A DNA stretch of 64,000 bases from an uncultured Alphaproteobacteria bacterium (GTDB lineage: Bacteria > Pseudomonadota > Alphaproteobacteria > Geminicoccales > Geminicoccaceae), in NCBI GenBank assembly GCA_963731495.1, contig CAVSVZ010000006.1:7178-71177 (forward strand), in the 5' to 3' direction. This document shows, one piece after another, positions 8,610 to 27,406 of this stretch. The notes under the pieces are model-generated. The model ran no database searches, had not been told where the DNA came from, and worked only from the letters and a program-made list of their open reading frames with translations. How positions within the stretch are numbered: the stretch's first letter is position 1; every line of letters starts with the position of its first letter. A program made the position numbers and the translations under genes.

Positions 8610-9501
8610 ATGCCACGGCTGACCTTGCGCGACGCGGCGCTGTTCCTTTCGCCCGCGCTGCTGGTCATGCTTGTCATCACCCTGTACCCGTTCCTGTACA
8701 CGCTGGTCTTGAGCTTTCAGGACTGGAACCTCGCCGCCTTTCATGGCAAGCGCTTCGTTGGCCTCGCCAATTACGTCGAGTTCCTGACCAACCCCGACAT
8801 CTGGCATGCGCTGCAGGTGACCGCTTTCTACGTGGTCGCCTGCGTCACGATCGAGTTGGTCCTGGGCCTGTCGATCGCATTTCTGTTCGACACCACCTTT
8901 CGCGGTGCGCAGCTTGCCCGAAACCTCTTGTTGCTGCCGATGGTGATGTCGTCGGTGGTGGTCGGGCTGATCTGGCGCTGGATCTTCAACGCCGAGCTGG
9001 GCGTGCTCAACTATTTCGTCGAGTTCGATCGGGCTCACGCCGCTGGCGTGGCTCACCCAGCCCGGCCTCGCATTCCTGTCGGTCGTGGTTGCCGACATCT
9101 GGCAGTGGACGCCTCTGGTCTTCCTGGTCTGCCTGGCAGGCCTCCAGGCGGTGCCACCCGACAGTATCGAGTTGGCGCGCCTCGATGGCGCGTCCTGGTG
9201 GCAGATCCAGCGCTATGTCGCGCTGCCCGCGATCCAGCCCATCATCCTCACCGTGATCCTGATCCGCACGATCGACTGCCTGCGCTTCGTCGACAAGATC
9301 TTCATCATGACCTATGGCGGTCCGGCCGGTACGACCTCGACCCTCGGCTTCCATATCTACCTGAAGGGCTTCAAGTACTTCCAGATGGGCGCGACCGCCG
9401 CCTATTCGATCGTCTACATGGCGATCATCATCATCCTGGCAAAGCTGCTGATCGGCTCGTTCCGTCGCGCTGATTTGCGCGATTCGGAGCAAGAGACATG
9501 A
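8610..9501 (+). pseudogene. carbohydrate ABC transporter permease, interrupted by one frame change near 9030
   Basis: ORF 8610.. reads as a permease up to ...NAELGVLNYFVEFD. The sequence continues in the frame of ORF 9085..9501 as GLTPLAWLTQPGLAFLSVVVADIWQWTPLVF...DGASWWQ.... This looks like a single extra nucleotide around 9030. Confidence 0.75.
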
Positions 9502-18184: not shown

Positions 18185-19971
18185 TCACAGCGGCCAGACC
18201 ACCAGGATCATCGGGAGCGCGACCGCCGACGATCAGGAGCTCGAGCGGCAGGCCCATGCGCCAGTAGTCGCCGAAGCGATAGCCGCCCGGGCCCATGATC
18301 AGGGTGTTGTTCTTGTGGCCGATCGGCGTCAGGAAGGCGCAGGACGCGGCCACCGCCACGGCCATCAGGAACGGGTCCGGGCTGGCGCCGAGGCGCTCGG
18401 CGACCTCGAGCGCGATCGGCGCCGCGATCACCGCGGTCGCCGTGTTGTTCATGACGTCCGAGAGCGTCATGGTCACGACCATCAGCACGGCCAGCACGAC
18501 CACCGAGCGAAGCGCCCGCCGAGACCGCCACCAGGCCGTCGGCGATCAGCGCGGTGCCGCCGCTGGTCTCCAGCGCCTCGCCGATCGGGATCAGGCGAGC
18601 CCAGCAGCACGATCACCGGCCACTCGACCGAATTCGTAGAGCTGGCGCAGCGGCACGATGTTGAGCAGCACATAGAGCGCCGCGACGCCGGCCAGCGCCA
18701 CGGACAGATCGAGCAGGCCGAAGCTCGCCAGCGCGATCGCCGCGGCGAACACGCCGACGGCGAGGCCCGCCTTGTGCGCGCTGCACGACCTGGCAGGCCG
18801 CGCTCGGCGAGCGGCAGGCAGCCCAGCCAGGTGGCGACCTCCGGCAGCCGCTCGGCGGGCCCAGCAGCAGCAGGATGTCGCCGGCCTGGATCTCGAGCCG
18901 GCGCACGCGCTCGCGAAACCGCGTGCCCTGGCGCGACACGCCGAGCAGGTTGACGCCGTGGCGGTAGAGCAGGCGCAGCGATTGCGCCGAGCGGCCCTCG
19001 ATCCGGGCACCCTGTGGCACCACGACCTCCAGCAGGCCCAGATCCTCGCCTTCCAGCACGCTGCGCTCGCGCTTCTGGCCGGCATATTCGAGGCCGAGCG
19101 CGCCGACCATCTTGTCGATCGCGGCCGGGCTCGCCTCGACCACCAGCACGTCGCCCTTCTGGATCTACCGTGCGCCGCGCCAGACCGGGCAGCCGCTGGC
19201 CGCGCCGCACCAGCCCGAGCACCGCGACCTCGGCCTCATCGGCGACCTCGTCCAGCTCGCGCATGTTCTTGCCGATCGCCGTGGAGCCCTCGGCCACCGT
19301 GACCTCGGCGATGAAGTCGGCGAGATCGCGCAGCTCGCGTCGGGCTGTCCTGCTCGCGGCGCGCCGCCGGGATCAGCCGCCAGCCGACCAGGGCGACGAA
19401 GGCGACGCCGGCCAGCGCGCAGACCGCGCCGACCGGGGTGAAGTCGAACATGCCGAACGGCGCGCCCAGCGCCTGCTCGCGAAACGCCGCCACGATGATG
19501 TTGGGCGGCGTGCCGATCAGCGTGACCAGGCCGCCCAGGATCGTGGCGAACGACAGGGGCATCAGGGTCAGCGCCGGGCTGCGCTTGGCCTTGCCCGCGG
19601 CCTCGAGGTCCACCGGCATCAGCAACGCCAGCGCCGCGACGTTGTTCATGACCGCCGAAAGCGCCGCCGCGGCCCCGGCCATGACCGCGATGTGGCGGGA
19701 CAGGCTGGCGCGAGGCAGTCGCGACGCGGCGTGCGATCAGGTCGATCACGCCGGAGTTGGACAGCCCGCGGCTGATGATCAGGACCAGCGCGATGATCAC
19801 GGTGGCCGGATGGCCGAAGCCCGAGAACGCCTCCCTGGCCGGCACCACGCCGGCGAACAGCGCGACCACCAGCGCGCCGAACGCCACCAGGTCGTAGCGC
19901 CAGCGCCCCCAGATCAGGAACGCGAACACGCCAAACAGCAGCGCGAAGAGGATGATCTGGTCGGTGGTCAC
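18185..19971 (-). pseudogene. SLC13/DASS-type permease with two TrkA-C domains, heavily frameshifted
   Basis: Recognisable pieces lie in successive frames. These are VTTDQIILFALLFGVFAFLIWGRW... (GTG 19971), MNNVAALALLMPV..., the TrkA-C pieces AEVTVAEGSTAIGKNMREL... and LLEVVVPQGARIEGRSAQSL..., ...VEWPVIVLLG..., ...MNNTATAVIAAPIALEVAE..., and the C-terminus AVALPMILVVWPL* (stop 18185). At least 7 frame changes. Confidence 0.8.
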
Positions 19972-20145
19972 GCGGAGCCCTCGATCGTGTCGCCGCCTTT
20001 GTGCATCAGCGGGCGGCCGGTGGCCAAGCGCTTGACCAGCGGTGCCCATCATGGCGGACATTTCGACCACGCCGCCACCATGCTAGGTTGTGAGATCAAC
20101 GCGCCCGCGCAGGGCACCATCACCAAGCAGCGTGAGGGGGTTCTC

Positions 20146-21761
20146 ATGGTGCTCGATCGACTGACAGCCAGGCAGACCGCGCTCGGCGCGGCCCTGGTGC
20201 TCGGCATGGCCCTGGCCAGCTTCGGCGCGCCCGACGCCCTCGCCCAGAACGTGCTGCGGATCGGCAATTCCGGCGAGCCCGACAGCCTCGATCCGCATCA
20301 GGTCTCGGGCAACTGGGAGGACCGCATCGTCGGCGACATGTTCATGGGCCTGACCACCGAGGCGGCCGACGGCACGGTGGTCCCGGGCGCCGCCGAGAGC
20401 TGGACGATCTCCGACGACGGCCTGACCTATACCTTCAAGCTGCGCGACCACACCTGGTCGGACGGCACGCCGGTCACCGCCGACGACTTCGTGTTCGCGC
20501 TCAGGCGGATCCTCGATCCCGCGACCGCGGCCGAATACGCTTACATTCTCTATCCGATCAAGAATGCCGAAGCGATCAACAGCGGCAATCTCGCCGACCT
20601 CGACGCGCTCGGCGTGCGCGCGATCGACCCCAAGACCCTCGAGATCACGCTCGAGCGGCCGACCTCGTATTTCGTCGAGCAGCTGACCCACTACACCGCC
20701 TACCCGGTGCCCAAGCACAAGGTCGACGAGCTCGGCGACGACTGGGTCAAGCCCGACAACATCGTCGGCAACGGCCCCTATACCGTGGTCGAATGGGTGC
20801 CCAACAGCCACGTCAAGATGGTCAAGAACCCGAACTTCTACGACGCCGACAACGTCGCGATCGACGAGGTCGTCTACTTCCCGACCGAGGAGCGCAACGC
20901 CGGCACCAAGCAGTTCCGCGCCGGCGAGCTCGACGTCCAATACGACTTCGCCTCCGAGCAGATCGACCTGCTCAAGGAGAACTTGCCGGAAGCCACCCAC
21001 ATCTCGCCCGAGCTCGCCGCCTACTACTACGTGTTCAACACCAAGGCAGCCGCCGTTCGACGACGTCCGGGTGCGCGAGGCCCTGGCCATGGCGATCGAC
21101 CGCAAGGCGATCACCGAGAAGGTGCTGCGCACCGGCGAGGTGCCGGCCTACAGCCTGGTGCCGCCGAACACCGGCGCCTACGGCGAGCCGCCGCAGGGTC
21201 GAGTGGGCGGACATGCCCTACGCCGAGCGGGTCGAGCAGGCCAAGGAGCTGCTGGCCGAGGCCGGCTACGGCCCCGACAACCCGCTGAAGTTCACCCTGC
21301 GCTACAACACCTCGGAGAACCACAAGAAGATCGCGATCGCGATCGCCGCGATGTGGAAGCAGCTGGGCGTCGAGGCGGAGCTGTTCAACACCGAGGTCAA
21401 GGTCCATTACAACGACCTGCAGGAGCACGATTTCCAGGTGGCGCGCGCCGGCTGGGTCGCCGACTACAACGACCCGGAGAATTTCCTGTCCCTGCTGCGC
21501 GTCAAGACCGGCCCGATGAACTACGGCCAGTACGAGAATGCCGAGTACGACCGGCTGATGGACGAGTCGGACGCGATCACCGATTCGGCCAAGCGCAACG
21601 AGCTGATGCACGAGGCCGAGACCATCATGCTGGCCGACATGCCGGTGATCCCGATCTATCACTACGTCTCCAAGAACCTGGTCTCGCCGAAAATCCAGGG
21701 CTGGGTCGACAACGCCAAGAACAAGCACCGCACCCGCTGGCTCAGCCTGGCCGAAGAGTGA
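20146..21761 (+). pseudogene. peptide/oligopeptide ABC substrate-binding protein (family 5), two frame changes
   Basis: Starts MVLDRLTARQ... with RBS GAGGGGG. The frame changes near 21050 (...YYYVFNTKA | PFDDVRVREALAMAIDRK...) and near 21196 (...GAYGEPP | VEWADMPYAERVEQAKELL...). It ends ...HRTRWLSLAEE*. Confidence 0.8.
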
Positions 21762-21769
21762 GCGTGCCC

Positions 21770-21795
21770 GAGGCGGCGGCTGCGGCCGCCGCCTC
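21770..21795 (+). terminator. GC hairpin between oppA-like and oppB-like genes (attenuator or partial terminator)
   Basis: GAGGCGGCGGC-TGCG-GCCGCCGCCTC gives an 11-bp perfect stem 9 nt after the stop. There is no clear U-tract. Confidence 0.35.
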
Positions 21796-21840
21796 TGTCT
21801 GCCAAAAGCACCAGCGCGGGGCCGGCTGAGCGGCTGCGCC

Positions 21841-22764
21841 ATGAGCGGCTATCTGCTGCGTCGCCTGCTGATCAGCGTGCCGACGCTGCTGGTGATCATC
21901 ACCATCGCGTTCTTCATGATGCGGGTGGCGCCGGGCGGGCCGTTCGACCAGGAGCGCGCGCTGCCGCCCGAGATCGAGCGCAACATGCTGGCGGCCTACA
22001 ATCTCGATGCGCCGCTGGTCGTGCAGTACTGGGACTACCTGAAGGGCGTGCTGCACGGCGACTTCGGGCCGTCGTTCAAATATCGCGACTTCACGGTCGC
22101 CGAGCTGCTGCTGTCCGGCTTTCCGGCGAGCCTCAAGGTCGGCGGCCTGGCGATCGCGCTGGCCGTGGTGATCGGCATCACGCTCGGCACGATCGCGGCC
22201 CTGCGCCAGAACAGCGGCATCGACTACGCGGTGATGGCCACGGCGATGACCGGGATCACGATCCCCAACTTCGTCATGGCGCCGCTGCTGGCGCTGGTCC
22301 TGGGGGTGTATCTCGGCTGGCTGCCGGTCGCCGGCTGGGGCGGTGGTGCGCCGCGCTTCCTGATCCTGCCGGTGATCGCGCTCGCCTTGCCGCAGATCGC
22401 CTACATCGCGCGCCTGACCCGCGGCAGCATGATCGAGACGCTGAGCGCCAATTTCGTGCGCACCGCGCGCGCCAAGGGGCTGCGCGAGCAGATCGTGGTG
22501 GTGCGCCACGCGCTCAAGGGCGCGCTGCTGCCGGTGGTCTCCTATCTCGGGCCGGCCGCCGCCCAGGTCATGACCGGCTCGGTGGTGATCGAGACCATCT
22601 TCGGCATCCCGGGCATCGGCCGCTACTTCGTGCAGGGCGCCTTGAACCGCGACTACACCCTGGTGATGGGCACGGTGATCGTCTACGCGGTGCTGATCAT
22701 CGCGCTCAATCTGGTGGTCGACCTGCTGTACGGCCTGCTCGATCCGAAGGTGAAGCAGCGATGA
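21841..22764 (+). CDS. peptide ABC transporter permease (OppB/DppB type)
   Basis: Intact 307-aa ORF with the typical N-terminus MSGYLLRRLLISVPTLLVIITIAFFMMR and the EAA region. Confidence 0.9.
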   Translation: MSGYLLRRLLISVPTLLVIITIAFFMMRVAPGGPFDQERALPPEIERNMLAAYNLDAPLVVQYWDYLKGVLHGDFGPSFKYRDFTVAELLLSGFPASLKVGGLAIALAVVIGITLGTIAALRQNSGIDYAVMATAMTGITIPNFVMAPLLALVLGVYLGWLPVAGWGGGAPRFLILPVIALALPQIAYIARLTRGSMIETLSANFVRTARAKGLREQIVVVRHALKGALLPVVSYLGPAAAQVMTGSVVIETIFGIPGIGRYFVQGALNRDYTLVMGTVIVYAVLIIALNLVVDLLYGLLDPKVKQR

Positions 22765-23659
22765 GCATCGCTGCCCGCCGGGACCTGCTGGAGCGCGGCC
22801 GCCGAGGTCAAGGGCCGCTCGCTCTGGCAGGACGCGCGCCGCCGGCTGTTCCGCAACAAGGCGGCCGTGGTCTCGATGGTCCTGCTGGCGATCATCGCGA
22901 CCTGGCGCTGCTGGCGCCGTTGCTGAGCCCGCACCCCTATGACGAGGTCTACTGGGAGCGGATCGCGGCGCCGCCGGACTTCGCCAACGCGCACTGGTTC
23001 GGCACCGACGGCAATGGCCGCGATCTGTTCGTGCGCACGCTCTACGGCGCGCGCGTGTCTCGCTGATGGTCGGCATCCTGGCGACCGCGGTCAGCCTGCT
23101 GATCGGGGTCACCTGGGGCGCGATCGCCGGCTATTTCGGCGGCCACCTCGACAACCTGATGATGCGCTTCGTCGACATCATGTACTCGCTGCCGTTCATG
23201 TTCTTCGTGATCCTGCTGATGGTCGTGTTCGGCCGCAACATCTTCCTGATCTTCATCGCGATCGGCGCGGTCGAGTGGCTGACCATGGCGCGCATCGTGC
23301 GCGGCCAGACCCTGTCGATCAAAGGCAAGGAGTTCATCGAGGCGGCGCGCGCCGCGGGCGTCGCCAACCGAAAAATCATCCGCCGCCACATCATCCCGAA
23401 CCTTCTGGGGCCGGTGGTGGTCTACGTCACCCTGACCGTGCCGCAGGTGATCCTGATCGAGAGCTTTCTGTCGTTCCTGGGCCTGGGCGTGCAGGAGCCG
23501 CTGACCAGCTGGGGCGTGCTGATCGAGGACGGCGCCGCCAACATGGAGCAGTCGCCCTGGATGCTGATCTTCCCGGCGACCTTTCTGGCGGTGACCCTGT
23601 TCTGCTTCAACTTCATCGGCGACGGCCTGCGCGACGCGCTGGACCCGAAGGATCGGTAG
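22761..23659 (+). pseudogene. peptide ABC transporter permease (OppC/DppC type), about three frame changes
   Basis: ATGA overlap with oppB. The expected reading ...AAEVKGRSLWQDARRRLFRNKAAVVSMVLLAIIAT / ALLAPLLSPHPYDEVYWE...LYGARVS / LMVGILATAVSLLIG... requires shifts near 22800, 22900 and 23060. The last 197 aa (ORF 23066..23659) are intact. Confidence 0.8.
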
Positions 23660-23670
23660 GCTGCTGATCG

Positions 23671-24318
23671 TCATCGTGGGGCCACGGGATAGATCCTTGA
23701 TGCCCCATGCTGCCAGCCACCCAGCCACTCCAATGTTCTCTTTAGATGAGCGAAGGACCGCGAGTGCCGATCCAAGATATCCCAATCCAATGCCGTAACA
23801 AATCTTACTTGATCTTGCGTTTCCTTGTAGGTTCTTGATCTCATCAAGCCCGAGATCTCCTCCTTGGCGCCTCGAATTTGCTCCGCCTGTGTTAGGTAGT
23901 CTCTCCTGTTGTCCGCCCAATCATATTCCGGGAATCGAACTCGTAAACTTGAAAGAGAAAAGAGGAAAAGGCTTTCAAACTCGCGGACCAAAAGCACCAT
24001 CCCAAGTGGTTTCTCAAAATGCAATGCTTCTAACCGCCCCGAAAAGGCCACCGCCACATCAACTGCACAGTCGTCATCACAATCCAGCAACAACAAGGCA
24101 GAGTCACCGTCATCCCTACTCATAGCATATGCCACAAATCGCTCCAGCATTCCCTCCCTACTCAATTTCTTTATGTCTCCAGCCTTGATGGGTCGCCCGG
24201 CAGGAACGATGTGAGACAGATTGTTGTTTGCTGCCACGCGACGGATTAATTCTGGTACCGCTTTCTGGTCTCCATCACCTTCAACGAGCAAAACCGGCCG
24301 CCACACTCTCGCAATCAT
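23671..24318 (-). CDS. DUF4276 family protein (Toprim-like motif pattern)
   Basis: 215-aa ORF in the low-GC cassette. It has N-terminal VLLVEGDGDQKAVPELI and a later LLLLDCDDDCA, which is the Glu ... DxD pattern. Its start overlaps the ATPase stop (ATGA). Confidence 0.7.
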   Translation of the reverse strand: MIARVWRPVLLVEGDGDQKAVPELIRRVAANNNLSHIVPAGRPIKAGDIKKLSREGMLERFVAYAMSRDDGDSALLLLDCDDDCAVDVAVAFSGRLEALHFEKPLGMVLLVREFESLFLFSLSSLRVRFPEYDWADNRRDYLTQAEQIRGAKEEISGLMRSRTYKETQDQVRFVTALDWDILDRHSRSFAHLKRTLEWLGGWQHGASRIYPVAPR

Positions 24319-25536
24319 TCACTCACGAGCCCCTCAACTGTCATCAACTCTCCTAAAGTGAACAATCTCTCACGAACCGCATCTTTCTGATTTTGGCCGA
24401 CGAACCCCACTTTAGAGTGTCCCTCATGCATTTCCACTGCTACAATCTGATCTGGCGTGAAGTAGTCTACGAGATTCGGGCTGTGAGTAGTGACCAGTAT
24501 TTGCGATCTATGAGCTCGCCTCCCGAATAGCATCAGCCAGCACGGCGAGGACGCCTGGATTAACATTTTGCTCCGGCTCTTCCAATGCAATAGTCTCGGG
24601 TGCATTCGGTTGATAGAGAGAGACCAAAATGCCTAGCACTCTTAGCGTACCATCCGATATCTGAGAGACATTGAAATCATGCGTTTTGCTGCCGGGCTCT
24701 CGCACCCGAAAAGTAGGGACAGCAAGGCCGCCAATACTCTGAATTGTAATATTCTCAAGATTAGGAATAATAAGACGCAGCGCCGCAATAACTTCAGACC
24801 GGCCATACATGCCTCGACGACTTCGAGGCATTGATTTGAACACAGAGGTAAGATTGTTGCCGCTTGAACTAAGTCTTTGATCGTTCGATGGTGTTTGAGG
24901 TGTGCGGAGCGTGTTCGAAAAGATGGAGTAGGCCTCGAATGAAGTAAGAGCACGACGAAGCCCTAGCAGACCTCTAATAGGAAGGCCACGGACCGAGGAT
25001 CGGGTTGACTGGATAAAAAGCTCGTCCCGATCGTCGATTTGGTATTCTTGAGCACGAGCAGTACGGAAGTTGCGATCGTATCGTAAATTGACGCGACCTT
25101 CTCGGTCCCGTGTGTAGGACGTGGTTTCGACGGTACCTTCGGATGGGTTGATACCCGCGGTATCCTCGTCATTATCACCTGAAAGATAGTGAACAGTCTC
25201 AGACCAAACTGCCTCCTCTCGGATTATCCGATAGTGTCCCTTTGCCGACCCCAAGGTCACCGAAAAATGACCCGTACCGGCGCGGCTGTCCATGTTGAGC
25301 GAAATGGAAACATGATATGGACGCGACGGGGACCACTGACGGATGCTATCTATGCCATGTCTATCTGAAACCGCGCGGTCTAGATCGTAGGACACGGCAT
25401 CCTTGATGAAGCGGATGGCATCTATCACATTGCTCTTTCCGGAGCTGTTCGGTCCGACGAGGAGCATCATTCTGCCCAGAGGGAGGTCGAGGCGCTCGAT
25501 GCTCTTGAAGTGCTCGACAGTCAGGCGCCGGATCAT
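24315..25536 (-). pseudogene. ABC-type (AAA_21/OLD-like) ATPase, single frame change near 24511-24525
   Basis: Likely start is MIRRLTVEHFKSIERLDL (ATG 25536). Motifs are Walker A GPNSSGKSN, signature-like QISDGTLRVL, Walker B/D-loop IALEEPEQNVNPG, and H-loop HRSQILVTTHSPN after the shift. The track splits it into ORFs 24508..25596 and 24315..24605. Confidence 0.75.
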
Positions 25537-25598
25537 GAGGTTGCAGTCCACAGGTCCATCGGCGGGGGCCGGGTCAAGTTGAAGCGGTAGATCCATAG

Positions 25599-25661
25599 CA
25601 CCAACGCAACGAATGCGTAAGGGTGGTGGCCAGCCACGCAGAGTTCGCTGACTACCACTAA
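25599..25661 (+). pseudogene. higB: possible 3' relic of higB (RelE/ParE-fold killer protein)
   Basis: 20 codons, ...ECVRVVASHAEFADYH*, ending 12 nt before the higA start. A ...DYH* C-terminus directly upstream of higA is characteristic of HigB. An in-frame stop at 25596-25598 marks where the cassette begins. Confidence 0.3.
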
Positions 25662-25673
25662 AGGAGAGGGACG

Positions 25674-26039
25674 ATGAGCATCCCGATCGAGGACGTGGCC
25701 GCGGGGCGGGTCGATTTCACCGACCTCGAGCGGCCGGGCCACAAGCGCCTGCCGCCCTTGCACCCTGGCGAGGTCCTGCGCGAGGAGTTTCTGGGGCCGC
25801 TCGATATGTCCGCCTATGCGCTCGGCAAAGCACTGCATGTGCCGCTCACCAGGATCACTGCGATCCTGGCCGGCGAGCGCGCGGTCAGCGCCGACACCGC
25901 GCTGCGGCTCGCCCGATTCTTCGGCACCACGCCGGAGTTCTGGATTCGCCTGCAGGGCACCTACGACCTGGAGGTGGCACGGTCCGAGCGCGGTGCCGCG
26001 ATCGCGGCGGAGGTACCGGAGCGGGTGCAGGTGGCCTGA
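25674..26039 (+). CDS. higA: HigA-family antitoxin (XRE-type HTH)
   Basis: 121-aa ORF with RBS AAGGAGAGGG. The sequence HPGEVLREEFLGPLDMSAYALGKALHVPLTRITAILAGERAVSADTALRLARFFGTTPEFWIRLQ is classic HigA/VapI. Confidence 0.85.
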   Translation: MSIPIEDVAAGRVDFTDLERPGHKRLPPLHPGEVLREEFLGPLDMSAYALGKALHVPLTRITAILAGERAVSADTALRLARFFGTTPEFWIRLQGTYDLEVARSERGAAIAAEVPERVQVA

Positions 26040-26594
26040 GGGTGTCGATCGGTCGAGCGGCCGGCCGCAACGACGCCATCTGTTGGCGACCCGGGCGAGG
26101 CCATCAACTCAAAGAGTGGTCGCCCCCCCTCACCGATGGAGTCGATGGAGAATCAGCCTGGATTGATGTGAAAAATCAATCCACGGAACGTCCGTCGAGT
26201 TCGAGACGACCGTATGTTATCATGGGAAAACCTCGTCTAAAAACCATAACAAGGTCCGCCGATCATCGTGAATTCATCCAATCCACAGATGCCTTTTCAT
26301 CCGGGTGATGGAGAATGATCAATAGCTATAACTGAATTCGTGATCGCCGATATCAGCGATGCGCCGGCCATGCGTCGCAAATGGCGCAGATATGCGTCGG
26401 CTTAGATTGGAAGTGTCGCATCTCATCGCATGGCGAAGCAAAGTAAAACACATGCATCAGTACGATCAGCTTCCAGTAAGCCAGGATCAGCATGGAGATG
26501 CTGGAGGCAACAATCGCCGCGTGCAGTTAGCATGCTGTTTTCGCTATTCTTTTCTGGAAGCACGGCATTCGATCGATTGATGCAAAAGGGGCCT

Positions 26595-26638
26595 CGACGC
26601 TGACTGGAGATATCGCTGATCCGGAGCGTCGCTTTTTT
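26595..26638 (+). terminator. intrinsic-terminator-like hairpin followed by T6
   Basis: CGACGCT (26595-26601) pairs with AGCGTCG (26625-26631), extended by CTGGA/TCCGG, followed by C-TTTTTT (26633-26638). An A-run lies upstream, so it could act in both directions. Confidence 0.4.
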
Positions 26639-26738
26639 GCCCCCTGGAGGGCAGCGCAGATATGCGTCGCCTGTAGCATCGAAGGCTTGAAATCAGGGCA
26701 CAGAATTCGATAGCGTGATATCGTATTGGGAGGCCGCG

Positions 26739-26987
26739 ATGGCGCAGTTGCTGGTTCGCAATCTCGATGAGGACGTGAAGGCACGCTTGCAGAGGCGGGC
26801 GCGGCGGCACGGACGTAGCACCGAGGCGGAGGTGCGCGAGATCCTCCGCAATGCGGTGCGCGACGAGGCGGAGGACCCCAGGCCCCTCGGCAGTCGGATC
26901 CGCGCCCGCTTCGCCGGCATCGGCCCGGACGACGACTTGCCGGATCTGCACGGCGGACCGGCCCGGCCTGCGGCCTTCGAGAGGTGA
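26739..26987 (+). CDS. vapB: ribbon-helix-helix antitoxin (FitA/VapB-like)
   Basis: MAQLLVRNLDEDVKARLQRRARRHGRSTEAEVREILRNAV... with RBS GGGAGG. It has a GTGA overlap with the PIN gene. Confidence 0.8.
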   Translation: MAQLLVRNLDEDVKARLQRRARRHGRSTEAEVREILRNAVRDEAEDPRPLGSRIRARFAGIGPDDDLPDLHGGPARPAAFER

Positions 26988-27406
26988 TCGTCCTCGACAC
27001 CGATGTCGTGTCGGCCCTGATGCGGCGCGAGATCGATCCGGTCGTGGTCGCGTGGCTCGACACGCAGCCCTCGGAGTCGATCTGGACGACCGCCGTGGCC
27101 GTGTGGGAGATCCGCTCGGACCTGGAGGCGCTGGCCGAAGGGCGCAGCCGGCGGCATCTCGAGGCGGCGTTGGAGGTCATGCTGAGGGACGATCTCGAAG
27201 GCCGCGTCCTGCCGTTCGAGCAGATCGCGGCGTGGCAGGCGGCCTTGATCGCGGACCGCCGCAAGCGGGCCGGCCAGGCGATTGTGATGCGAGATGCGCA
27301 GATCGCCGGGATCGTCGCCGCCAGGCGCGGCACCTTGGCGACCCGCAACACGCGGCATTTCAGCGATCTTGGCATAGCGCTGGTCGACCCTTGGGCGGTC
27401 CCTTGA
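26984..27406 (+). CDS. vapC: PIN-domain toxin VapC/FitB-like
   Basis: 140-aa ORF starting MIVLDTDVVSALMRRE... and ending ...DAQIAGIVAARRGTLATRNTRHFSDLGIALVDPW. The acidic residues are in the expected places. Confidence 0.85.
   Translation: MIVLDTDVVSALMRREIDPVVVAWLDTQPSESIWTTAVAVWEIRSDLEALAEGRSRRHLEAALEVMLRDDLEGRVLPFEQIAAWQAALIADRRKRAGQAIVMRDAQIAGIVAARRGTLATRNTRHFSDLGIALVDPWAVP

What the first reader, a model, noticed from the sequence alone, without database searches (positions are those of the whole stretch)
23660..25661. Low-GC two-gene cassette: ABC-type ATPase coupled to a DUF4276 (Toprim-like) protein, a candidate defence/conflict module
About 1.9 kb lies between the oppC-like stop (23659) and a higB relic (25599-25661). 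Its G+C drops to about 52-53% in my 60-nt spot counts (24001-24060, 24661-24720, 24781-24840), against ~68% at 22001-22060. It holds two minus-strand genes with an ATGA stop/start overlap at 24315-24318. (i) A ~405-aa P-loop ATPase has Walker A GPNSSGKSN, signature-like QISDGTLRVL, IALEEPEQNVNPG and VTTHSPN, which is the SMC/OLD/AAA_21-like ABC ATPase type. (ii) A 215-aa protein I recognise as DUF4276 carries LLVEGDGDQ and LLLLDCDDD, the Glu ... DxD pattern of Toprim nucleases. An ATPase with a separate Toprim-like partner is the architecture of OLD-derived anti-phage modules (PARIS AriA/AriB, AbiL; Gabija GajA is the fused form). I am not aware of an experimentally characterised ATPase/DUF4276 pair. 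The context fits an addiction/defence islet: orphan higA, an AT-rich spacer and vapBC follow, and the cassette sits where oppD/oppF would be expected. Caveat: the ATPase is broken by a 1-nt frame change near 24511-24525 (...LADAIREA / HRSQILVTTHSP...), so this copy may be dead or miscalled.
Basis: partly seen in the sequence, partly recalled or inferred. Interest (0 to 1): 0.8.

Follow-up and report, generated by a model that had tools for sequence, protein, structure and literature searches.

The report
Frameshifted HEC-01 ATPase–Toprim defence gene pair
This low-GC, horizontally acquired two-gene cassette (an ABC ATPase plus a DUF4276/Toprim nuclease-like protein) belongs to HEC-01, a candidate anti-phage system that is already catalogued and has been tested, so it is an ordinary member of a known kind, and its single frame break sits in a stretch of sequence full of similar one-base insertions.

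Summary
A 1.94-kb block (23660-25598) has 51.6% G+C against 68.6% for the rest of the window. It carries two minus-strand genes joined by an ATGA overlap. One is an SMC/OLD-type ABC ATPase (24315-25536, one extra base near 24513). The other is an intact 215-aa DUF4276 protein (23671-24318) whose confident model best matches OLD-nuclease Toprim regions.

The pair is not new. Both proteins match PADLOC HEC-01A (5e-66) and HEC-01B (8.7e-36). HEC-01 was described by Payne et al. 2024 and gave no protection in E. coli. A cold-seep study reported that one representative protected against at least one of T4/T5/T7. MADS Mad3/Mad4 is a related pair. It is not PARIS, AbiL, Gabija or MADS proper.

In 53 of 53 metagenome loci the ATPase sits directly upstream of the DUF4276 gene. 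Synteny with Geminicoccales relatives ends exactly at the oppC stop; oppD/oppF are absent and higB is cut to about 20 codons.

The ATPase frameshift is one of 17 frame lesions between 18.2 and 25.5 kb. Fifteen are insertions, and there are no in-frame stops. This pattern favours local assembly error slightly over true decay. Verdict: new member of a known kind, low interest.

The parts
23660..25598 (.). Low-GC block (51.6% G+C, GC3 about 0.52) holding the two-gene cassette. It is bounded by the oppC stop on one side and the higB 3' relic on the other.
   Evidence: Synteny with relatives ends at 23656-23686.
24315..25536 (-). HEC-01A-type ABC ATPase gene, 406 codons once one base is removed. 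It reads in two frames: 24514-25536 (residues 1-341) and 24315-24512 (residues 342-406 plus the stop). Walker A is GPNSSGKS, the signature is SQISDGT, Walker B is IALEEPE and the H-loop is TTHSP.
   Evidence: PADLOC HEC-01A PDLC04178: 5e-66 (profile positions 7-316/399) and 1e-15 (315-381/399). Pfam AAA_21 1.6e-20, plus SMC_N and AAA_15. PDB sequence hits to OLD 6p74, SMC, PtuA and GajA. Frameshift-aware alignment to the intact L001 ATPase covers residues 1-408 of 409 at 58% identity, with one +1 event and no stops.
24506..24516 (-). Frame-breaking lesion in the ATPase. The most parsimonious reading is one inserted base (T at 24513 on the coding strand, AGC|T|CAT). It is not in a homopolymer.
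23671..24318 (-). HEC-01B / DUF4276 Toprim-like protein, 215 aa and intact. Its ATG overlaps the ATPase TGA (ATGA at 24315-24318). Conserved residues are E13, D79, D81, D82, D83, C84, E113, F114, E115, R149, K152 and Y164.
   Evidence: PADLOC HEC-01B 8.7e-36. Pfam DUF4276 2e-5, below the gathering score. Alignment A1. AF2 model with pLDDT 92.4. The three best Foldseek matches are OLD C-terminal Toprim regions 6njv, 6njw and 6nk8.
25599..25661 (+). Probable 3' remnant of higB: 20 codons ending ...ADYH*, lying 12 nt upstream of higA.
   Evidence: the ending and spacing match annotated higBA pairs. There is no profile hit.
25674..26039 (+). higA antitoxin, left as an orphan.
   Evidence: NCBIfam antidote_HigA, 101.9 bits against a cutoff of 47.7. 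Pfam HTH_3.
26040..26714 (.). Second low-GC stretch (53%) with no recognisable gene or RNA.
26715..27406 (+). vapBC-type toxin-antitoxin pair: a FitA-like RHH antitoxin (26715-26987) and a PIN toxin (26984-27406).
   Evidence: Pfam FitA-like_RHH 9.2e-19 and PIN 3.6e-10.
20083..23659 (+). oppA (2 frame lesions, near 21043 and 21197), oppB (21841-22764, intact) and oppC (22761-23659, 3 lesions near 22797, 22904 and 23049-23061). No oppD or oppF follows.
   Evidence: Relatives L004-L008 carry oppABC...oppDF.
18188..19965 (-). SLC13/CitMHS-TrkA_C permease gene with about 11 frame lesions. It is syntenic with intact genes in L005 and L008.

Best explanation
The block 23660-25598 is a horizontally acquired HEC-01-type cassette. 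HEC-01A is an SMC/OLD-like ABC ATPase, translationally coupled (ATGA) to HEC-01B, a stand-alone DUF4276 protein with a Toprim nuclease fold.

Proposed mechanism, by analogy with OLD, Gabija and PARIS (inferred, not shown): the ATPase binds the nuclease and holds it inactive while acting as a sensor. A phage-derived cue changes the ATPase's ATP cycle and releases or activates the Toprim protein. The metal site of that protein (E13 after strand 1; D79/D81-D83 after strand 3) then cuts nucleic acid and blocks infection. The substrate could be DNA, as for OLD and Gabija, or tRNA, as for PARIS.

What is shown: the domain identities, intact catalytic motifs in both proteins, strict conservation of the gene pair, and the foreign composition. 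What is inferred: complex formation, the trigger, the substrate and the phenotype.

In this genome the cassette lies at a breakpoint where oppD/oppF and the 5' part of higB are missing. The ATPase frame is interrupted by one extra base. That lesion belongs to a local cluster of 17 frame lesions (18.2-25.5 kb), almost all of them single-base insertions, with no nonsense codons. I therefore judge an assembly or consensus error in a poorly supported stretch slightly more likely (about 0.55) than genuine inactivation. Either way it is an ordinary member of an already catalogued candidate defence family. Sub-confidences: identity as a HEC-01-type pair about 0.9; horizontal origin about 0.85; defence-nuclease function about 0.6.
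For: Identity. The matches are PADLOC HEC-01A 5e-66 and 1e-15, and HEC-01B 8.7e-36. AAA_21, SMC_N and AAA_15 also match. PDB sequence neighbours are OLD, SMC, PtuA and GajA. The DUF4276 model has pLDDT 92.4, and its top three PDB fold matches are OLD Toprim regions with probability 0.90-0.98. The Glu and Dx(D)DD motifs are invariant or nearly so across homologues. The literature already assigns HEC-01B/DUF4276 to Toprim.

Pairing. The ATPase lies directly upstream in L001, L003, L084 and L085-L088 and in 53 of 53 metagenome loci with enough upstream DNA.

Defence association. Some relatives are embedded in Hma or lie next to type I RM, Dsr2 or MzaA genes. One HEC-01 representative protected E. 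coli B.

Horizontal origin. The block has 51.6% G+C and GC3 0.52, against 68.6% and about 0.9 for the window. The closest homologues have 44-47% G+C. In L001 the same kind of cassette sits as a low-GC insert between serC-like and serA-like genes whose flanks are 63% G+C. Synteny with Geminicoccales relatives stops at the oppC stop, and no oppD/F remnant exists in the window.

State of the copy. The frameshift-aware alignments give 17 lesions: 13 of +1, 2 of +2 and 2 of -1. There are no in-frame stops. Alignments to relatives are end to end at 58-84% identity, and GC3 of 0.94-1.0 is preserved. The relative divergence of frame-corrected OppC is no higher than that of intact OppB.
Against: Function is unproven. 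Payne et al. found no protection by HEC-01 against their phage panel, and the cold-seep result is a single spot assay. The fold match to OLD Toprim is modest (TM about 0.4, E 4e-3 to 8e-3), and the Pfam DUF4276 score is below the gathering score. Many relatives sit among housekeeping genes rather than in defence islands.

On the state of the copy, several points favour real decay. The lesions are strongly clustered: at least 17 in 7.3 kb against one detected in the other roughly 56 kb. They fall in genes made useless by the loss of oppD/F. They are not in long homopolymers. The 80-kb source contig gives no platform information. No reads are available.
Confidence: 0.6

Rival explanations
1. The cassette is a genuinely dead relic. 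The +1 insertion in the ATPase is real, and the whole 18.2-25.6 kb stretch (SLC13 permease, oppA, oppC, HEC-01A, truncated higB) is a decaying, dispensable region. Decay would have followed a rearrangement that removed oppD/oppF. The intact DUF4276 ORF survives only by chance.
For: The lesions are confined almost entirely to this stretch. oppD/F are absent and higB is truncated, so oppABC would be under relaxed selection. One lesion looks like a TC tandem duplication, a natural slippage type. The sites are not long homopolymers. At about 2.3 lesions per kb, a 648-nt ORF stays intact by chance with a probability of about 0.2.
Against: The 15:2 excess of insertions over deletions runs opposite to the deletional bias established for bacterial pseudogenes. 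There are zero in-frame stop codons where several would be expected if substitutions had accompanied 17 indels. There are no larger deletions. Codon bias is undiminished (GC3 0.94-1.0). Frame-corrected OppC shows no excess divergence relative to intact OppB. The most heavily hit gene, the SLC13 permease, is not explained by the loss of oppD/F.
Confidence: 0.4
2. The pair is not an anti-phage system. It would instead be a housekeeping or selfish nucleic-acid-processing module, for example a repair or recombination OLD-like nuclease or an addiction-type module, which merely co-occurs with defence genes.
For: HEC-01 gave no protection in the first test. Several relatives lie next to aceE, leuS, secY, lepA or dnaG, with composition close to that of the host. 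There were no hits on plasmids or phages.
Against: Relatives are embedded within Hma and lie next to RM and other defence genes. A positive spot assay has been reported. The closest characterised architectures (OLD, Gabija, PARIS, MADS Mad3-4) are all defence systems. The distribution is patchy and the composition foreign both here and in L001.
Confidence: 0.15
3. The pair is a member of PARIS (AriA/AriB), AbiL, Gabija or MADS rather than HEC-01.
For: There are weaker ATPase hits to AriA (2.5e-20), AbiLi (5.7e-13), GajA (3.8e-10), mad3 (7.5e-14) and NCBIfam MAD3 (2.7e-34).
Against: The HEC-01A hit is far stronger (5e-66). The partner protein's significant PADLOC hits (E 8.7e-36 and 8.5e-32) are both to HEC-01B. 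Its only other listed hits are marginal (E 0.003-0.007): two further HEC-01B models and PDC-M38B. No AriB, AbiLii or mad4 model appears. The MAD3 score of 119 bits is far below the cutoff of 420. There is no fused Toprim, no GajB helicase, and no methyltransferase or other mad gene nearby.
Confidence: 0.03
4. The frame break is a programmed frameshift or a phase-variable switch that regulates the ATPase.
For: None beyond the existence of the break itself.
Against: All homologous ATPases examined are single ORFs. There is no slippery run or repeat tract at 24506-24516. Similar breaks litter unrelated neighbouring genes.
Confidence: 0.02

Closest known systems
HEC-01 (Hma-embedded candidate 01; PADLOC-DB v2; Payne et al., bioRxiv 10.1101/2024.01.29.577857)
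   Same: It is a two-gene unit of an ABC ATPase (HEC-01A) followed by a stand-alone Toprim-like protein (HEC-01B). Both window proteins match these profiles best (5e-66 and 8.7e-36). They share the same gene order, strand and overlapping stop/start.
   Different: The window copy is stand-alone between oppC and a higB remnant, not embedded in an Hma system. Its ATPase frame is interrupted as assembled. It belongs to a rare sub-branch: the nearest B protein is 52% identical, and only 24 of 1091 family clusters score at E<=1e-30.
MADS Mad3/Mad4 (methylation-associated defence system; Maestri et al. 2024, cited in PMC12065111 and PMC11464382)
   Same: It pairs an AAA_15/21 ABC ATPase with a DUF4276 Toprim protein. 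The window ATPase hits mad3 and NCBIfam MAD3.
   Different: The MAD3 score of 119 bits is far below the equivalog cutoff of 420. The DUF4276 protein matches no NCBIfam or PADLOC mad4 model. There is no methyltransferase or other mad gene nearby.
PARIS (AriA ABC ATPase + AriB DUF4435 Toprim; PMC11464382)
   Same: It has a split ABC ATPase/Toprim architecture. This is the best mechanistic template: the ATPase scaffold releases the nuclease on sensing a phage protein.
   Different: AriB is DUF4435, not DUF4276. The partner protein gives no AriB hit, and the AriA hit is much weaker than the HEC-01A hit.
OLD-family nucleases and Gabija GajA (classes 1-2)
   Same: The ABC ATPase N-terminus is similar (PDB 6p74 OLD at 8.8e-8, plus GajA). 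The DUF4276 model's best PDB fold matches are OLD Toprim regions 6njv, 6njw and 6nk8.
   Different: In OLD and GajA the ATPase and Toprim are fused in one polypeptide, and Gabija also needs the GajB helicase. Here there are two separate proteins and no helicase.
Menshen NsnC variants with a DUF4276 C-terminal domain (PMC12065111)
   Same: They carry the same DUF4276 Toprim effector domain. The window ATPase hits NsnB at 9.1e-15.
   Different: Menshen is a three-gene system (NsnA/B/C). There is no NsnA- or NsnC-type gene here.

Membership tests
HEC-01 (PADLOC candidate system) | A protein that matches a HEC-01A (ABC ATPase) profile | tested here: met
   PDLC04178: 5e-66 for the N-terminal 362-aa ORF (profile 7-316/399) and 1e-15 for the C-terminal ORF (315-381/399).
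HEC-01 (PADLOC candidate system) | A protein that matches a HEC-01B (Toprim-like) profile | tested here: met
   PDLC04196 8.7e-36 (6-190/197) and PDLC04200 8.5e-32.
HEC-01 (PADLOC candidate system) | A and B are adjacent on the same strand, with A upstream | tested here: met
   There is an ATGA overlap at 24315-24318. The same arrangement holds in 53 of 53 related loci.
HEC-01 (PADLOC candidate system) | Both genes are intact | tested here: not met
   The ATPase has a +1 insertion at about 24513 as assembled. Whether this is real could not be tested.
HEC-01 (PADLOC candidate system) | Embedded within an Hma (helicase-methylase-ATPase) system. This is the discovery context, not a requirement. 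| tested here: not met
   The neighbours are oppC, a higB remnant, higA and vapBC. Some relatives are Hma-embedded.
HEC-01 (PADLOC candidate system) | Anti-phage activity | not testable with these tools
   The literature is mixed: negative and positive for one representative.
Toprim superfamily | A three-layer alpha/beta fold with a four-stranded parallel sheet, similar to known Toprim domains | tested here: met
   The AF2 model (pLDDT 92.4) has strands at 8-12, 40-45, 73-80 and 105-111 with helices between them. The top three Foldseek PDB matches are OLD Toprim regions (probability 0.90-0.98), but TM is only about 0.4.
Toprim superfamily | A conserved Glu after strand 1 and a DxD motif after strand 3 | tested here: met
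   E13 lies in LVEGDGD, directly after strand 8-12. D79-C-D81-D82-D83 lies at the end of strand 73-80. D79, D81, D82 and D83 are invariant across 12 homologues.
Pfam PF14103 DUF4276 | Score at or above the gathering threshold | tested here: not met
   The score is 25.3 bits against 30.2, although the alignment is full length (1-192/192, E 2e-5). The identical protein P0001 and 9 of the 11 other homologues listed carry a precomputed PF14103 annotation.
SMC/OLD-type ABC ATPase (AAA_21/AAA_15) | Walker A, ABC signature, Walker B and H-loop in the correct order | tested here: met
   GPNSSGKS, SQISDGT, IALEEPE and TTHSP are read directly. Pfam gives AAA_21 1.6e-20, SMC_N 8.1e-10 and AAA_15 9.2e-8. 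PDB sequence hits are to OLD, SMC, PtuA and GajA.
PARIS | An AriB (DUF4435 Toprim) partner | tested here: not met
   The partner protein gives no AriB hit. AriA scores only 2.5e-20 against 5e-66 for HEC-01A.
MADS | Mad3 equivalog score, plus Mad4 and the methyltransferase and other mad genes | tested here: not met
   NCBIfam MAD3 scores 119 bits against a cutoff of 420. The DUF4276 protein matches no NCBIfam family. No such genes lie nearby.
Gabija | A fused ATPase-Toprim GajA plus the GajB helicase | tested here: not met
   The two proteins are separate and there is no helicase. GajA hits are confined to the Walker A region.
HigBA toxin-antitoxin | A HigA antitoxin together with an intact upstream HigB toxin | tested here: not met
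   HigA is met (101.9 bits against 47.7). Of HigB, only a remnant of about 20 codons remains, and it gives no profile hit.

The most novel reading that the evidence does not exclude
The sub-branch formed by the window cassette, L001 and L003 may be a compact low-GC HEC-01 cassette that moves without any recombinase gene. It would land at gene junctions in high-GC Alphaproteobacteria: between serC and serA in L001, and at the oppC end here. In this genome its arrival would have replaced oppD/oppF and the 5' part of a higB toxin gene. If so, it would show a defence cassette displacing part of a toxin-antitoxin module, and would offer a tractable minimal ATPase/Toprim system whose target (DNA or tRNA) is still unknown.
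Probability: 0.12. Interest if true: 0.4.

Novelty: new member of a known kind. Interest (0 to 1): 0.2.

Why it matters
It matters little beyond annotation. The cassette should be labelled as a HEC-01-type candidate defence pair (ABC ATPase plus DUF4276/Toprim), not as a new system.

Two points are of practical use. First, HEC-01 remains mechanistically uncharacterised, with conflicting phenotype reports, so diverse natural members such as this sub-branch are candidates for testing. Second, the stretch 18.2-25.5 kb of this assembly carries 17 frame lesions of an error-like type. Pseudogene calls there, including the 'dead ATPase' and the opp genes, should not be trusted without the reads.

Tried and rejected
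- **Source contig.** Exact look-up of the window's DUF4276 protein and of its identical database twin P0001 found no encoding contig on record. Cluster look-up gave no names or accessions. The source organism is therefore inferred only from OppB relatives (Geminicoccales/Geminicoccaceae MAGs, 79-82% identity).
- **Metagenome scan.** A scan with the single protein found nothing. The profile scan found 80 loci.
- **Mobile elements.** DNA and protein searches of plasmids and phages with the cassette, the DUF4276 protein and the 26040-26714 spacer found no match. There is thus no evidence that this sub-branch rides known mobile elements.
- **Insertion signatures.** There are no tRNA genes, no Rfam families, no flanking direct or inverted repeats beyond chance-level GC-rich matches, and no promoter or terminator signal above shuffled expectation. 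The insertion mechanism is unresolved.
- **higB relic.** A Pfam scan of the 20-aa relic and of small ORFs in the spacer found nothing.
- **PDB by sequence.** A profile search with the DUF4276 alignment found nothing. Only fold comparison links it to OLD Toprim.
- **Rejected: membership of other systems.** PARIS, AbiL, Gabija, MADS and Menshen membership are rejected.
- **Rejected: programmed frameshift.** Homologues are single ORFs.
- **Rejected: simple insertion.** A simple insertion into an otherwise intact opp operon is rejected because no oppD/F remnant exists and there is no downstream synteny.
- **Relative-rate test.** The OppA/OppC against OppB comparison showed no clear acceleration. 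It is too insensitive to distinguish recent decay from error.
Full report
**Observation**

- The oppC-like ORF ends at 23659.
- A 215-aa minus-strand ORF spans 23671-24318.
- Its ATG overlaps the TGA of an upstream ORF, giving ATGA at 24315-24318.
- The upstream ATPase is split between ORFs 24315-24605 and 24508-25596.
- All quoted motifs are present.

G+C falls to 0.47-0.56 across 23700-25500, against 0.62-0.72 upstream and 0.64-0.70 just downstream. The block 23660-25598 is 51.6% G+C with GC3 of about 0.52. The window background is 68.6% with GC3 of about 0.9.

**What the two genes are**

Pfam places the long ORF in AAA_21 (1.6e-20), SMC_N and AAA_15. It places the 215-aa protein in DUF4276 over the full profile, but below the gathering score (25.3 against 30.2 bits).

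PADLOC profiles are decisive. The ATPase fragments match HEC-01A model PDLC04178 at 5e-66 (profile 7-316/399) and 1e-15 (315-381/399). The small protein matches HEC-01B at 8.7e-36. Hits to AriA, AbiLi, GajA, mad3, NsnB and PtuA are many orders of magnitude weaker. The small protein's significant hits are both to HEC-01B; its remaining listed hits are marginal (E 0.003-0.007), to two further HEC-01B models and PDC-M38B.

NCBIfam gives a sub-threshold MAD3 hit (119 bits against a cutoff of 420) for the repaired ATPase and nothing for the DUF4276 protein. By sequence, the ATPase's nearest solved relatives are an OLD nuclease (6p74), SMC heads, PtuA and GajA.

An AlphaFold2 model of the DUF4276 protein is confident (pLDDT 92.4, pTM 0.88). 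Its three best PDB fold matches are the C-terminal Toprim regions of Xanthomonas and Burkholderia OLD (6njv, 6njw, 6nk8). Probabilities are 0.90-0.98, though TM is only about 0.4.

E13 follows strand 1, and D79/D81/D82/D83 end strand 3. The four Asp residues are invariant among homologues. This is the Toprim Glu...DxD arrangement.

**Literature**

The pair is already named.
- Payne et al. (bioRxiv 10.1101/2024.01.29.577857) defined HEC-01 as an ABC ATPase with a Toprim protein found embedded in Hma systems. They showed by structure prediction that HEC-01B shares the OLD metal site. They found no protection in E. coli against their phage panel.
- A cold-seep metagenome study (bioRxiv 10.1101/2024.09.26.614923) reported that one HEC-01 representative protected E. 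coli B against at least one of T4, T5 or T7.
- The Menshen study (PMC12065111) assigns DUF4276 to the Toprim superfamily and equates it with Mad4 of MADS.
- The PARIS paper (PMC11464382) lists MADS3-4 and AbiL among ABC-ATPase/Toprim systems.

Its own refutation criterion ('already belongs to a named system') is met, although mechanistic characterisation is still lacking.

**Conservation of the pair**

Intact close homologues exist. L001 carries a 409-aa ATPase plus a 218-aa DUF4276 protein with a 4-nt overlap, and L003 carries 429 and 214 aa. Actinobacterial relatives show the same arrangement.

Among 80 metagenome loci found with the family profile, all 53 with at least 1250 nt of upstream DNA carry an ATPase homologue directly upstream on the same strand.

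The family is widespread: 1091 50%-identity clusters at E<=1e-3. The window protein's sub-branch is rare, with only 24 clusters at E<=1e-30 and a nearest relative at 50-52% identity.

Neighbourhoods of 14 long loci are mixed. Some include HmaA/B/C, type I RM, Dsr2 and MzaA. Others include leuS, secY, lepA and dnaG.

**Genomic setting**

The nearest genomes are Geminicoccales/Geminicoccaceae MAGs (OppB 79-82% identical). They carry an SLC13 permease (in L005 and L008), then oppA, oppB, oppC, a variable junction, oppD and oppF.

In the window, synteny runs from the SLC13 permease through oppC and stops at the oppC stop codon. No oppD or oppF remnant exists anywhere nearby.

On the other side the block abuts a 20-codon remnant ending ...ADYH*, 12 nt upstream of a bona fide higA. 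This matches the end and spacing of annotated higB genes, but it gives no profile hit. A 675-nt low-GC spacer without recognisable content follows, and then a FitA-like/PIN vapBC pair.

The cassette therefore marks a replacement or rearrangement breakpoint rather than a clean insertion.

In L001 a homologous cassette of 44-45% G+C lies between serC-like and serA-like genes whose flanks are 63% G+C. This is a second, independent, compositionally foreign placement. I found no repeats, tRNA, integrase or plasmid or phage matches that would explain the mobility.

**The frame break**

Against L001 and L003, the ATPase aligns from ATG 25536 (not 25596) to its stop. There is one +1 event between 24506 and 24516, and the simplest reading is an extra T at 24513. 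There are no stops, and all catalytic motifs are intact.

The break is not isolated. A frameshift-aware alignment to relatives gave these counts:

| Gene | Frame lesions |
|---|---|
| SLC13 permease | about 11 |
| oppA | 2 |
| oppC | 3 |
| oppB | 0 |
| DUF4276 gene | 0 |
| ATPase | 1 |

That is 17 lesions in 7.3 kb: 13 of +1, 2 of +2 and 2 of -1. Outside this stretch, the GC3 frame analysis and Pfam revealed only one more, another +1, in a sugar ABC permease at about 9.02 kb.

After frame correction, the proteins align end to end with relatives at 68-84% identity. They have no in-frame stop codon, no large deletion and undiminished codon bias (GC3 0.94-1.0). OppC is no more diverged relative to OppB than in comparisons among relatives.

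The strong excess of insertions runs opposite to the well-established deletional bias of bacterial pseudogenes. So many indels without any nonsense codon are also unexpected under natural decay. Both features suggest consensus errors in a poorly supported, possibly strain-variable, part of the assembly.

Against this, the lesions are clustered in genes that the loss of oppD/F would have made dispensable, and they are not in long homopolymers.

I put assembly error at about 0.55 and genuine decay at about 0.4. Only the reads can decide.

**Mechanism**

The domain content, intact motifs, strict pairing and translational coupling are shown. The rest is inferred by analogy with OLD, Gabija and PARIS.

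On this model the ABC ATPase binds and restrains the Toprim nuclease and senses a phage cue. ATP-dependent release or activation then lets the nuclease cut DNA or tRNA and abort infection. I give the defence-nuclease reading about 0.6, in view of the mixed experimental record.

**Verdict**

This is a correctly spotted but already catalogued candidate defence pair. It is a new member of a known kind, possibly inactivated, in a breakpoint region of doubtful sequence quality. Interest is low (0.2).

Noticed in passing
window 18188-23659: There is a dense cluster of frame lesions in conserved genes: about 11 in an SLC13/CitMHS-TrkA_C permease (18188-19965, minus strand), 2 in oppA (near 21043 and 21197) and 3 in oppC (near 22797, 22904 and 23049-23061). 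Nearly all are +1 insertions, and none is accompanied by a stop codon. oppB, which lies between them, is intact.
   Followed up: yes
window 8616-9462: A sugar-type ABC permease (BPD_transp_1) is split between two frames by an apparent +1 insertion at about 9015-9025 (...NYFVEF|G|IGLTPLAW...). This is the only frame break noticed outside the 18-25.5 kb stretch.
   Followed up: partly
window 18200-23650: Genes in this segment have GC3 of 0.94-1.0, clearly above the 0.89-0.92 of the other genes in the window. The SLC13-oppABC block may have a different history (or a different source population in the assembly) from the rest of the contig.
   Followed up: no
window 26040-26714: A second low-GC (53%) stretch lies between higA and the vapB-like gene. 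It has no Pfam, Rfam or plasmid DNA match and no convincing ORF. It may be the remnant of another foreign insert.
   Followed up: partly
L001 1-2224 (also L002): The closest intact homologous cassette (44-45% G+C) sits between the 3' end of a serC-like gene and the start of a serA-like gene (both identified by eye only), in flanks of 63% G+C. This is an independent, compositionally foreign placement of the same cassette type, seen in two separate assemblies.
   Followed up: partly
L004 11812-13240; L006 11950-13526; L007 12017-12440: The oppC-oppD junction is variable in the closest relatives. L004 and L006 carry an insert of about 1.4-1.6 kb (a PPK2-like ORF by eye in L004). L007 has a 424-nt gap, and L005 and L008 have none. 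This junction may be a recurrent insertion site in the clade.
   Followed up: partly
L085, L086, L087: In three actinobacterial contigs the ATPase-DUF4276 pair lies directly downstream of the pyruvate dehydrogenase E1 gene, with composition only slightly below that of the host. This suggests long residence at a conserved chromosomal site rather than in a defence island.
   Followed up: no
window 25674-26039 and 26715-27406: An orphan higA (its toxin reduced to about 20 codons) sits next to an apparently intact FitA-like/PIN vapBC pair with a 4-nt overlap (26984-26987). Together they form a small toxin-antitoxin islet beside the cassette.
   Followed up: partly
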